From the IMG/VR virus record IMGVR_UViG_2695420579_000005: a DNA stretch of 11,040 nucleotides; one strand, given 5' to 3'. A program made the position numbers. This document shows positions 3,001 to 6,000 of the stretch, in pieces. This DNA comes from a virus (Duplodnaviria > Heunggongvirae > Uroviricota > Caudoviricetes). How positions within the stretch are numbered: position 1 is the first letter of the stretch; every line of letters starts with the position of its first letter.

Positions 3001-6000
3001 AGTGACTCGGAAGTGCTGTTAGTCGCACTACTGAGCTGTACTATCCCCTTTTTCGTCGTGCTCGCATCCTCAAGCGCCACGGCGGATGCAATATCCTCTG
3101 CCCGTTTTGCCGCTGTCTCAGCGCGCGTTGCTGCAGATTCCGCCGTACTTTTGCTCTGAGCTGCTGCCGTCGCACTACCAGCAGCCTCTGTCGCCTTCGT
3201 GGATGCCGTCGTGGCGCTGCCCTTCGCTGCTGACGCCTGTCTGGTCGCCTCATCTTTTGAAGCAGACGCCGATGATGCCGATGACGCCGCCGAACTGGCG
3301 GACGATGCGGCAGCCGTTTTTGAGGATTCTGCACGGGTTTCCGACGCTTTCGCGTTCGTTTCGGATGTCTTCGCTGCGGAAGCTGACCTCGCTGCTGCCG
3401 TGGCCTGCTCAGTGGCTTCGCCAGCCTTCGTTGTGGCTGTTGAAGCGGATGATGCGGCGCTTTCTGCCGATTTTCCGGCGGCGGTGGCACTGGCTGAGGC
3501 CTGCCCGGCACTTGTTGACGCGGCGCTGGCAGACGACGCAGCCGCTGTTTTTGAGCCTGCCGCAGCTGAGGCACTCTGTCCCGCTGCCGTTTCAGAAGAC
3601 CTGGCGTTCGTCTCGGACGTTTTGGCCGCCTTCGCAGAATTTGCAGCCGCCGTCGCCGAGGAAGCTGCGCTACTGGCGCTTGATGATGCGTTCGTTTCTG
3701 ATGATTTTGCCGCCTCTTTTGAAGCCGACGCATCCCGGGCTGAGGTGGCAGCTTCTGACGCTTTCGTGGTCGCGGTGGATGCAGAAGTGGCTGCTGATTG
3801 TTGTGACGCTGCCGCATTCGTTTCTAACGTTTTCGCCGCACCGGCACTGGTAGCCGCCGCGCTTTTTGAGGACTCTGCAGCGGCAGCACTTTTTGAGGCT
3901 TCAGTGGCCTTTGTTGATGCCGTTCCTGCGCTGGAAGACGCTGACTGAGCCGACGAAGCGGCCTGTCCGGCTGACGTGCTGGCTGCACGTGCTGAATCTG
4001 CAGCATCAGTCGCATGGGTTGCCGCCTCACGGGCTGATGTGCTGGCATCGCTGGCTGATTTCTTCGCGGCTGCCGTGTTCTGTGCCACCGCGGACGCGTT
4101 ACGCGCCACCTCTTCCACCATCAGCTCAAAACGGCGCAGTGCCTCCGGACGGGCATCATCCTCCGTCATGGCACCGAGAAAATCATTCAGCGTACCGGGT
4201 CGGGAATCTTCATACACGGTGATGGTCCCGGCATGTGACGGCGGGAATCCTTCCACCAACAGAATAACGCTGTACTGACCGTACTCAACGTCCATGCTGT
4301 AACGCCCGGCTTCATCCGGATTTTCTGAGGCCAGCGTGTTCACCACCACCGTGGTGCTGTTACGTTTTGCTTTCAGCTGGATTGTGCAGTTCTGTACCGG
4401 TTTTCCTGTGCCGTCTTTCAGTACACCTGAAATCTTTACTGCCATATTCACCCCACAAAAAAGCCCGCCTGAACCGGCGGGCTGTCATAACACTGTGTTA
4501 CCTGGCTAATCAGAATTTATAACCGACACCCACGATGAAACCGTCAGTGCGCCAGAGACGTGTTGCTGTGGCGACCGTCATCACTTCCGGTCAGCACATC
4601 GTGCGTTTTCCCCTTATTGTCAGTTACGCGGATATAATCCCCGGAAAAAGTCGACACACGGCTGTAAGCCACACCCGCCATCGCATACGCGCTGAACCAT
4701 TCATTCACGCGCACAGACGGCCCCGCCATCACGCTGAACCAGCGGTTACGCACGGAATCTTCATGCCAGCGGGTATCGCTGTAACGGGTCAGCTGGCGAT
4801 TCTTGTCTCCTGCATAGCTGAATGACGTCACCAGCCCCAGCGTATCCGTAAACTCATAACGGTATTTCACGTTAATCCCGTTCAGATCATCACTGCCGGG
4901 AACGTTGGTCCGGGCATGAAGATACCCCGCGCTCAGCGTGGACTGATGTTCAGACGCCCATGCAGGCGCACCGGATACGGCCAGGCAAATGGCTGCGGAC
5001 AAAATGGCTGCACAAACTTTACGCATAATTACCTCTCGCTTTTCTGCAATAAAAAAGGCGTCATTCCTGACGCCATTTATTGGGGTTATAAATATTTCAA
5101 CGAATACTGATGCCGGAAGCCGCTTTTTTGGTCACAATCACCGTACAGTCGGTGATATTGCCTGCCCCCTGATTGCCTTTCTGGAAAATCTTAAACTCCA
5201 GAGTGACGCTACCACCACCACTAGGCATATCAATAACTGCACTGTAACTACCGGGAATGGCACCTTTAGTTTCTCTGGATGCGATTAATACGCCGTTTTT
5301 GCGAACTTCAAAACCATAACCCGTGTATCGCGTGCCTCCTGGGTTATTTCCGCTCCCCGGATCGTCATACGCTATACCGTTAAAAATAATGGGCGGAATA
5401 ATAATCTGGCGGTCAAAGTTATGATCATCGCTTATGGTGACTGTAACCGTCCCGTTTGGTGTTTCCGTGTTACCCCACGTACCAGCCTGTTTCGGAAATG
5501 ATTTGGATACAGCTTTAACGAAGTCACCTCTGACCTGAGTCGCCTCCAGCATGCCCTTAATCGTACAGTTTTCATTTACCGTGACATTGTTGAGCGTCCC
5601 GGCGTTCGCATTCACACTGCCACTGATATCCGCATTTTTAGCGGTCAGCTTTCCGTCCGGAGTCAGGGAAAATGCCGATGGATTTCCACCGCTGGTAATG
5701 GTGGGGGCCGTCAGGCGTTTCAGGAACACGTCGTTCATGAATATCTGATCGCCCTGACCAACAAACATCGGTTTTGTGTTGCCATTCGCAGGATTAACCA
5801 TCGCAATCCTGTCCGCCGCCAGCAGCACCTGACTCTGCATGCCGTCAGGGGTGTTCTCAATACCGGCACCAATACCCGCGATATAAAGGCGTCCGTCCTG
5901 CATCTGCTGCAGCTTCACAGCCCACATGCTGTTCAGGTTATTATTTGTATCAACCTGAACCTTCTGTATCTGCTGAATTGCCGCACTCTGGTCTTCCAGT

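What the first reader, a model, noticed from the sequence alone, without database searches (positions are those of the whole stretch)
5057..5074. Compensatory base-pair changes preserve the terminator hairpin between J and lom in both copies
The stem is GGCGTCA/TGACGCC in the downstream copy and GGCACCA/TGGTGCC in the upstream copy (8137..8154). Two stem positions differ, and both are matched by the complementary change on the other arm (A-T to G-C, and C-G to T-A). Both keep a 7-bp stem followed on the minus strand by six U residues. Covariation of this kind is sequence-level evidence that the structure is under selection. It fits the established lambda arrangement in which lom is expressed separately from the late tail genes.
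Basis: seen in the sequence. Interest (0 to 1): 0.45.

Follow-up and report, generated by a model that had tools for sequence, protein, structure and literature searches.

The report
Conserved terminator hairpin between J and lom
The two hairpins are real and look like ordinary transcription stop signals after the phage tail gene J; their stems differ by two matched base-pair swaps, which fits selection on the RNA fold, and this is routine biology, not a new kind of element.

Summary
On the minus (coding) strand, 5074-5057 (GGCGUCA GGAA UGACGCC) and 8154-8137 (GGCACCA GAAA UGGUGCC) are 7-bp GC-rich hairpins. Each is followed by U6, lies 22-23 nt after a J stop codon, and sits 25 nt before the lom ATG. 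Both are the minimum-energy fold.

Among 148 distinct J-lom junctions from public contigs, 136 have a perfect 7-bp stem. Three stem alleles dominate. The commonest is GGCGCCA/UGGCGCC, and each window copy is one compensated transition pair away from it. Rare intermediates are mostly G.U wobbles. A second Lom family and lambda itself carry different hairpin+U-tract sequences at the same site. Phage Ayreon's GenBank record annotates the allele-B hairpin region as a terminator.

Best reading: a Rho-independent terminator ending J. It would stop unmodified polymerase and be read through by Q-modified polymerase, because stf and tfa lie downstream.

Caveats:
- Termination was not measured.
- The two arms are 4 nt apart, so their matching partly reflects linkage.
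- No promoter is recognisable between the hairpin and lom, so separate expression of lom is not shown here.
- The "downstream copy" is an IS21-scarred J fragment plus a frameshifted lom.

Ordinary; low interest.

The parts
5057..5074 (-). Downstream-copy hairpin (stem allele C). RNA sense GGCGUCA-GGAA-UGACGCC: 7-bp stem with a GNRA-type tetraloop.
   Evidence: Sequence. MFE fold -16.3 kcal/mol, z = -4.4. Terminator-like hit. The same allele occurs in 30 of 148 distinct public junctions.
5048..5056 (-). U-tract of the downstream copy (U6 then AUU), immediately 3' of the stem.
8136..8155 (-). Upstream-copy hairpin (stem allele B). RNA sense G-GGCACCA-GAAA-UGGUGCC-U: 7 Watson-Crick pairs plus an outer G.U pair.
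   Evidence: Sequence. MFE fold -14.2 kcal/mol, z = -2.8. Terminator-like hit. The hairpin, T-tract and lom leader are identical in phage Ayreon, where a 41-nt feature spanning them is annotated 'terminator'.
8128..8136 (-). U-tract of the upstream copy (U6 then AUU). The first U can also pair as the outer G.U.
8174..11032 (-). 3' part of the J (tail tip / host specificity) gene. Its start lies beyond the window end. The TGA stop at 8176-8174 is 18-19 nt before the hairpin.
   Evidence: ORF list. Pfam families Phage-tail_3, Ig_J, Ig_J_second, Phage_Tail_Tip and Ig_GpJ_C.
7507..8106 (-). lom copy 1, intact, 199 aa. Its RBS GAGAGG is at 8117-8112.
   Evidence: Pfam Ail_Lom over the full profile 1-199, E = 4e-129.
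5097..6886 (-). J' fragment: the C-terminal 596 codons of a second, diverged J allele. Its 5' side is cut off by an IS21-family remnant.
   Evidence: Pfam Ig_J, Ig_J_second, Phage_Tail_Tip and Ig_GpJ_C. Direct repeats D1 and D2 at 81-93% identity to the upstream J. Junction evidence.
4544..5026 (-). lom copy 2. An 83-bp deletion between CTGGCG repeats causes a frameshift and a truncated 160-aa product, so it is probably a pseudogene. Its RBS is at 5037-5032.
   Evidence: Alignment of the two copies and their translations. Pfam Ail_Lom covers only profile positions 1-159 of 199.
7460..7479 (-). Second terminator-like hairpin, after lom copy 1 and before the stf' fragment: GCCCGCU-GGUUCA-GGCGGGC followed by U5.
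4462..4483 (-). Second terminator-like hairpin, after lom copy 2 and before stf: AGCCCGCC-GGUUCA-GGCGGGCU followed by U5.

Best explanation
Each hairpin is a Rho-independent (intrinsic) terminator at the 3' end of the tail-tip gene J.

Mechanism, from established knowledge of intrinsic termination: RNA polymerase pauses on the U6-A-UU tract. The 7-8 bp GC-rich hairpin with its 4-nt loop then forms in the exit channel, and the weak rU:dA hybrid releases the transcript.

Inferred role: in a lysogen, the site stops transcription by unmodified polymerase leaving the silent late tail operon before it enters lom. During lytic growth, Q-modified polymerase ignores it and also ignores the second terminator after lom. 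That allows lom, stf and tfa downstream to be transcribed.

The fold is maintained by purifying selection. The stem has moved between three perfectly paired alleles by G-C to A-U and C-G to U-A transition pairs, most simply through G.U wobble intermediates.

Shown here: the anatomy, position, folding, conservation and covariation. Inferred: termination activity, Q read-through, and the insulating role.
For: Anatomy and position:
- 7-bp stem with 5 G-C pairs, 4-nt loop and U6 directly after the stem, on the coding strand, 18-23 nt after the J stop codon, in both copies.
- The hairpin is the MFE and centroid fold.

Population sample:
- 136 of 148 distinct J-lom contexts have a perfect 7-bp stem.
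- The alleles are GGCGCCA/TGGCGCC, GGCACCA/TGGTGCC and GGCGTCA/TGACGCC.
- Three pairs change on both sides, 98.6% of cells are paired, and 0 of 500 shuffles reach the observed score.
- RNAalifold independently recovers the same helix.

Energies:
- The compensated alleles fold at -14.2 to -16.3 kcal/mol and the G.U intermediate at -14.6.
- The rare C.A variant drops to -8.5 kcal/mol.

Same site, different sequence:
- Lambda has CGUCCG-GGAA-CGGGCG followed by UUUUAUUAU.
- A second Lom family has GGCACCU-CAGG-AGGUGCC followed by U6.
- Both fold as hairpins.

Strand-specific signal:
- Single-arm variants are mostly wobble on the sense strand: L092, L146 and L299, against L169 and L211.
- In the neighbouring lom-stf terminator, C-to-T variants (sense-strand G.U) occur at 5 sites in 14 contexts. 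G-to-A occurs at 1 site in 1 context.

Public annotation and literature:
- Ayreon's GenBank record (MF807953) marks this hairpin region as a terminator.
- Lom is transcribed in lysogens (PMC1151598).
- Lom is reported as strongly expressed in the lytic cycle (PMC9836094, citing Liu et al. 2013), which fits read-through.
Against: - No 3' ends or termination efficiencies were available, so function is predicted only.
- The generic terminator scan is not enriched over shuffles in this window (14 found against 10.6 +/- 3.6 expected). The case therefore rests on position and conservation, not on the scan.
- The two arms are 4 nt apart and co-inherited. The stem allele needs 17 changes on a J-flank tree and 32 on a lom-flank tree. 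Alleles are being moved by recombination, and the number of independent compensatory events may be as low as 2-3.
- DNA-level events do act on this palindrome. Some loci have a flipped loop (GAAA to UUUC), so templated quasi-palindrome correction could produce matched arms without selection on RNA.
- A terminator directly upstream of lom, with no recognisable promoter after it, makes the insulator role for an independently expressed lom incomplete.
Confidence: 0.72

Rival explanations
1. The RNA hairpin is functional, but its main role is not to end transcription at a boundary. It could be a 3'-end stability or processing barrier for the J message within the long late transcript. Alternatively, it could be a leader or attenuator in the 5' UTR of a lom mRNA that starts from an unmapped promoter inside the 3' end of J.
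For: - The structure is conserved on the sense strand.
- Only 25 nt separate the U-tract from the lom ATG, and no promoter-like site lies downstream of the hairpin. Any lom transcript must therefore start upstream of it or overlap it.
- The lom promoter is unmapped (PMC2147009).
- Q-modified polymerase must read through in any case, so the hairpin will be internal to late RNA.
Against: - No promoter-like site was found within 350 nt upstream either.
- The U6 tract directly abutting the stem is invariant in all 35 aligned sequences. That is needed for termination but not for a simple stability hairpin.
- The hairpin does not occlude the RBS.
Confidence: 0.15
2. A DNA-level palindrome with no RNA function. 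It would be a recombination or module-boundary sequence whose arms stay matched through tight linkage and templated (quasi-palindrome) correction during replication, not through selection on an RNA fold.
For: - The hairpin sits exactly where identity between the two window copies changes: 100% on the lom side against roughly 65-70% on the J side.
- Stem alleles are reshuffled relative to both flanks.
- Loop-flip alleles and arm recombinants (L211, L299) show DNA-level events inside the hairpin.
Against: - A DNA palindrome does not explain the invariant U-tract on one side only.
- It does not explain the outer G.U pair, present in 33 of 35 sequences, which pairs only on the sense strand.
- It does not explain the excess of sense-strand wobble variants.
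- It does not explain non-homologous hairpin+U-tract sequences at the same position in lambda.
Confidence: 0.08
3. The terminated 3' end of the J transcript is released as a small regulatory RNA. It would be a 3'-UTR-derived, Hfq-type sRNA whose seed is the conserved UUAUAACCC motif just upstream of the hairpin.
For: - The TTATAACCC motif between the J stop and the hairpin is conserved across divergent J ends and, as TTATTAACCC, in the second Lom family.
- A hairpin with a U-tail is the usual sRNA 3' module.
- There are weak, sub-threshold Rfam resemblances to Salmonella sRNA candidates (STnc40, 21 bits against a gathering score of 45).
Against: - The Rfam hits are at chance level and driven by the generic terminator. 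The upstream copy gives none.
- No target, Hfq-binding or expression data are available.
- The motif may simply mark where the conserved lom block begins.
Confidence: 0.04

Closest known systems
Canonical Rho-independent (intrinsic) terminators of E. coli and its phages
   Same: GC-rich 7-8 bp stem, 4-nt loop, U-tract immediately 3' of the stem, placed just after a stop codon on the coding strand. Stem pairing is maintained through compensatory and wobble changes.
   Different: Nothing structural differs. Activity was not measured. The site lies inside a Q-antiterminated late operon, so it should act only on unmodified polymerase.
The predicted terminator annotated between J and lom in Escherichia phage Ayreon (GenBank MF807953, 18454-18494)
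   Same: The hairpin (allele B), T-tract and lom leader are identical to the window's upstream copy.
   Different: That annotation is a prediction in a genome record, not an experimental result. It does not address allelic covariation.
The J-lom intergenic hairpin of phage lambda (NC_001416, about 18921-18947)
   Same: Same position between the J stop and the lom RBS. It has a GGAA loop, a GC-rich stem and a U-rich tail.
   Different: The stem sequence is unrelated (CGUCCG/CGGGCG, 6 pairs including one G.U). The tail is UUUUAUUAU. Lambda Lom is only about 45% identical to the window's Lom. I recall, but could not verify in the library, that late-operon terminators beyond J (t'J sites, Luk and Szybalski 1983) were mapped in lambda.
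Moron cassettes of lambdoid phages (promoter-gene-terminator; Juhala et al. 2000; PMC3594210)
   Same: lom is a lysogenic-conversion gene embedded in the tail operon, and a strong terminator follows it (4483-4462 and 7479-7460).
   Different: The element studied here lies upstream of lom. No promoter was found between it and lom. lom shows no clear GC-content deviation.

Membership tests
Rho-independent (intrinsic) terminator | GC-rich stem-loop (about 5-14 bp stem, 3-8 nt loop) that is the favoured local fold of the transcript | tested here: met
   7-8 bp stem with 5 G-C pairs and a 4-nt loop. It is the MFE and centroid structure at -14.2 and -16.3 kcal/mol, with z = -2.8 and -4.4.
Rho-independent (intrinsic) terminator | U-rich tract starting within 0-2 nt of the 3' end of the stem | tested here: met
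   U6 then AUU directly after the stem in both copies. The T6 columns are invariant in all 35 aligned sequences.
Rho-independent (intrinsic) terminator | Located downstream of a stop codon on the strand of the gene it ends | tested here: met
   The J stops at 8176-8174 and 5099-5097 lie 18-23 nt before the hairpin, on the same strand.
Rho-independent (intrinsic) terminator | Structure, not sequence, conserved among relatives (covariation) | tested here: met
   Three pairs change on both sides, 98.6% of cells are paired, and 0 of 500 shuffles reach the observed score. 136 of 148 contexts have perfect stems. Lambda and the second Lom family have different hairpins at the same site. Caveat: the arms are tightly linked.
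Rho-independent (intrinsic) terminator | RNA 3' ends map to the U-tract; measurable termination in vitro or in vivo | not testable with these tools
   No transcript-end data are accessible. Sakai Term-seq data exist (PMC7547250) but could not be read.
Moron cassette (autonomous promoter-gene-terminator unit) | Own promoter immediately upstream of the gene | tested here: inconclusive
   No sigma-70-like site lies on the minus strand between the hairpin and the lom ATG (25 nt) or within 350 nt upstream.
Moron cassette (autonomous promoter-gene-terminator unit) | Terminator immediately downstream of the gene | tested here: met
   Strong hairpin+U-tract at 7479-7460 and 4483-4462. It is conserved in 120 contexts, including lambda.
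Moron cassette (autonomous promoter-gene-terminator unit) | Base composition distinct from the neighbouring phage genes | tested here: not met
   lom is 54-59% GC. The adjacent J 3' end is 45-50% and mid-J is 59-64%, so there is no distinct signature.
Known Rfam RNA families | Score at or above a family's gathering threshold | tested here: not met
   No match at the hairpins reaches a gathering score. In the E-value scans no hit reaches its gathering threshold; the closest, STnc40, scores 21.1 bits against 45.

The most novel reading that the evidence does not exclude
In this phage group lom has no promoter of its own downstream of the hairpin. Its level in lysogens would then be set by partial or regulated read-through of the J-lom terminator, making the hairpin an attenuator and not an insulator. 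Possibly the terminated J 3' end also persists as a small RNA carrying the conserved UUAUAACCC motif.
Probability: 0.08. Interest if true: 0.5.

Novelty: already known. Interest (0 to 1): 0.2.

Why it matters
It matters little beyond annotation. It confirms that the J-lom junction of lambda-like prophages carries a structurally conserved intrinsic terminator, and it gives a clean small example of compensatory stem evolution: three paired alleles, with wobble intermediates and arm recombinants observed.

The practical value is for annotating prophage tail regions and for anyone mapping how lom is transcribed. The 25-nt gap with no promoter shows that the usual statement that lom has its own promoter still lacks a mapped site.

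Tried and rejected
- Rfam, at gathering thresholds and in permissive E-value scans. No family matches the hairpins. The STnc40 and STnc50 hits are sub-threshold and reflect generic terminator shape.
- Search for a lom promoter. Nothing was found on the minus strand near either copy. This was only a consensus scan, so it does not exclude a promoter.
- E. coli K-12 Rac prophage, as a way to use K-12 transcript-end data. lomR there is fused to a tape-measure fragment and lacks the J-lom junction, so it is unusable.
- Literature on late-operon terminators beyond J and on the lom promoter. No paper in the library describes this terminator. Liu et al. 2013 and the Casjens and Hendrix review are not held.
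- The Phi24B small RNA 24B_1 'between lom and vb_24B_43'. It lies downstream of lom in a short-tailed Stx phage and is absent from lambda, so it is unrelated to this site.
- GC-content deviation of lom as a moron signature. It is not informative.
- Looking for the window's exact tandem arrangement in complete E. coli genomes. No record covers the junction.

Full report
**Observation**

The + strand reads GGCGTCA-TTCC-TGACGCC at 5057-5074 and GGCACCA-TTTC-TGGTGCC at 8137-8154. Each is preceded by AAAAAA. All genes here are on the minus strand, where the sites read GGCGUCA-GGAA-UGACGCC-UUUUUUAUU and (G)GGCACCA-GAAA-UGGUGCC(U)-UUUUUAUU.

The two stems differ at pairs 4 and 5.

Folding 56-nt segments gives the hairpin as the minimum-energy and centroid structure. 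Energies are -16.3 and -14.2 kcal/mol, with z = -4.4 and -2.8 against dinucleotide shuffles. A consensus scan also calls both sites terminator-like. That scan is not enriched overall (14 hits against 10.6 expected), so it adds little by itself.

**Context**

Pfam scans confirm the gene order on the minus strand:

| Element | Coordinates | Note |
|---|---|---|
| J | 8174-11032 | continues beyond the window end |
| hairpin | 8155-8136 | upstream copy |
| lom | 8106-7507 | intact, 199 aa |
| second terminator | 7479-7460 | |
| stf N-terminal fragment | within ORF 7485-7117 | |
| J' C-terminal fragment | 6886-5097 | 596 codons |
| hairpin | 5074-5057 | downstream copy |
| lom' | 5026-4544 | truncated |
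| terminator | 4483-4462 | |
| stf | 4451-1362 | |
| tfa | 1362-781 | |

The two J-lom units are 81-96% identical at a spacing of about 3.06-3.08 kb. They are diverged alleles, not a fresh duplication.

Their junction is an IS21-family end remnant at about 6888-7141. lom' carries an 83-bp deletion between CTGGCG repeats that frameshifts it. The 'downstream copy' is therefore a decayed unit.

Between the copies, identity is 100% from the U-tract through the first ~135 nt of lom. It falls sharply on the J side, so the hairpin sits at a mosaic boundary.

**Related sequences**

I collected J-lom junctions in three ways:
- with Lom as a protein query against species-representative genomes and IMG/VR;
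- with the conserved lom leader as a DNA pattern;
- from phage records.

Of 148 distinct 270-nt contexts, 136 have a perfect 7-bp stem. Three alleles dominate:

| Allele | Stem | Contexts | In the window |
|---|---|---|---|
| A | GGCGCCA/TGGCGCC | 70 | not present |
| B | GGCACCA/TGGTGCC | 27 | upstream copy |
| C | GGCGTCA/TGACGCC | 30 | downstream copy |

Each window copy is thus one compensated transition pair away from A. The two differences are separate events, not two steps in one lineage.

Imperfect stems are rare:
- L092 is A-left/B-right, giving G.U.
- L146 and L198 carry U.G.
- L299 is C-left/B-right, giving two wobble pairs.
- L169 carries C.A.
- L211 is B-left/C-right, giving two mismatches.
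- There is one 1-nt deletion and one rearranged left arm.

Four contexts carry a flipped loop (UUUC in place of GAAA).

A second Lom family has GGCACCU-CAGG-AGGUGCC (the loop-closing pair is A-U in one family and U-A in the other) or a 6-nt-loop variant, each followed by U6. Lambda itself has an unrelated stem at the same place, CGUCCG-GGAA-CGGGCG-UUUUAUUAU. All of these fold as hairpins.

**Statistics and their limits**

On 35 distinct sequences (alignment A1):
- 98.6% of cells are paired, against 35-62% when partners are slid by 1-3 columns;
- three pairs change on both sides;
- 0 of 500 shuffles reach the observed covariation score or percentage paired.

RNAalifold independently returns the same 8-pair helix.

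The arms are only 4 nt apart. On neighbour-joining trees of the flanks, the stem allele needs 17 steps (J side) or 32 steps (lom side), where the minimum is 2. Alleles are therefore being moved among backgrounds as intact 18-nt units, and much of the arm-arm association is linkage.

The linkage-independent evidence is smaller but real:
- The four stem positions that vary at appreciable frequency form exactly two pairs. By my arithmetic, 21 of 1001 random placements would do so.
- The compensated alleles have near-equal stabilities of -14.2 to -16.3 kcal/mol. The G.U intermediate folds at -14.6, whereas the C.A variant falls to -8.5.
- Non-homologous hairpins occupy the same site in lambda.

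**RNA-level or DNA-level?**

The loop flip and the arm recombinants show that DNA-level events occur in this palindrome. Templated quasi-palindrome correction could also produce matched arms.

Several observations argue against a purely DNA-level account:
- The U-tract lies on one side only and is invariant.
- The outer pair is G.U in 33 of 35 sequences, which pairs only on the sense strand.
- Single-arm variants lean towards sense-strand wobble. The numbers are too small to test.
- In the neighbouring lom-stf terminator, C-to-T changes (sense-strand G.U) occur at 5 stem sites in 14 contexts. G-to-A occurs at 1 site in 1 context, although the stem has equal numbers of C and G.

**Mechanism**

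The most likely reading is an intrinsic terminator ending J. stf and tfa are late genes and lie downstream of both this site and the lom-stf terminator. Late transcription must therefore read through, which is what Q-modified polymerase does (established lambda biology). Lom is reported to be strongly expressed in the lytic cycle (PMC9836094, citing Liu et al. 2013). The terminator would act on unmodified polymerase, for example stray transcription out of the silent tail operon in a lysogen.

However, only 25 nt lie between the U-tract and the lom ATG. No sigma-70-like promoter is found there or within 350 nt upstream. The lom promoter is described as poorly known (PMC2147009). An attenuator or leader role therefore cannot be excluded.

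**What is known**

Escherichia phage Ayreon's GenBank record annotates a 'terminator' spanning the identical allele-B hairpin and its flanks. No Rfam family matches. No paper in the searchable library describes the site. From memory, and unverified, late-operon terminators beyond J were mapped in lambda by Luk and Szybalski (1983).

**Verdict**

The element is an ordinary, already-annotated kind of feature, and its function remains untested by experiment. Interest is 0.2.

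Noticed in passing
window 6888-7141, with flanks 6886 and 7142-7485: A fragment of about 250 bp from the end of an IS21-family element (98% identical to IS21 ends in many E. coli genomes). It joins a truncated stf N-terminal fragment (ORF 7485-7117; Pfam phage_tail_N positions 1-104 of 134) to the J' C-terminal fragment. The apparent tandem J-lom duplication is therefore an IS-scarred rearrangement between two diverged tail modules. In strain VTB97379v an intact ISEc62 sits in J at a different site.
   Followed up: partly
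window 4544-5026 compared with 7507-8106: The downstream lom has an 83-bp deletion flanked by CTGGCG direct repeats. This causes a frameshift and a 160-aa product lacking the last beta-strands, so it is probably a pseudogene. The terminator in front of it is nevertheless intact.
   Followed up: yes
window 4462-4483 and 7460-7479 (minus strand): A second, stronger terminator-like hairpin after each lom (GCCCGCC/GGCGGGC followed by U5). It is conserved even in lambda. The two window copies differ by one C-to-U change that makes a U.G wobble on the sense strand. Across 120 contexts, C-to-T stem variants far outnumber G-to-A variants.
   Followed up: partly
window 5083-5091 and 8162-8170 (+ strand GGGTTATAA; minus strand TTATAACCC): A short motif between the J stop codon and the hairpin. 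It is conserved across otherwise divergent J 3' ends and, as TTATTAACCC, in a second Lom family. It is absent in lambda. Its function is unknown; it may simply mark the start of the conserved lom block.
   Followed up: no
L049, L052, L067, L072 and others (IMG/VR loci), J-lom hairpin: The loop of the hairpin is reverse-complemented (UUUC in place of GAAA) on an unchanged stem. This small inversion within the palindrome shows that DNA-level events act on the hairpin.
   Followed up: partly
L211 and L299 (IMG/VR loci), J-lom hairpin: Reciprocal arm recombinants between alleles B and C. B-left/C-right gives two adjacent mismatches. C-left/B-right gives two adjacent wobble pairs.
   Followed up: partly
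L154 (IMGVR_UViG_2671180353_000009) 4204-7024; L184: Other contigs also carry two J-end/lom-leader junctions in tandem, with different spacing (1496 nt in L154). L154 is 99.8% identical to window 6888-8958, and its two hairpins are alleles A and B. Rearrangements duplicating this junction seem to recur.
   Followed up: partly
window 821-1019 (minus strand): A full-length Rfam match to IS009 (RF02111, 218 bits against a gathering score of 117) lies inside the tail-fibre assembly gene tfa.
   Followed up: no
window 5097-5500 compared with 8174-8580: The J' fragment retains a complete but clearly diverged C-terminal receptor-binding domain (Pfam Ig_GpJ_C, 90 bits against 125 bits for the upstream J). 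The locus therefore holds two different J receptor-binding ends.
   Followed up: no
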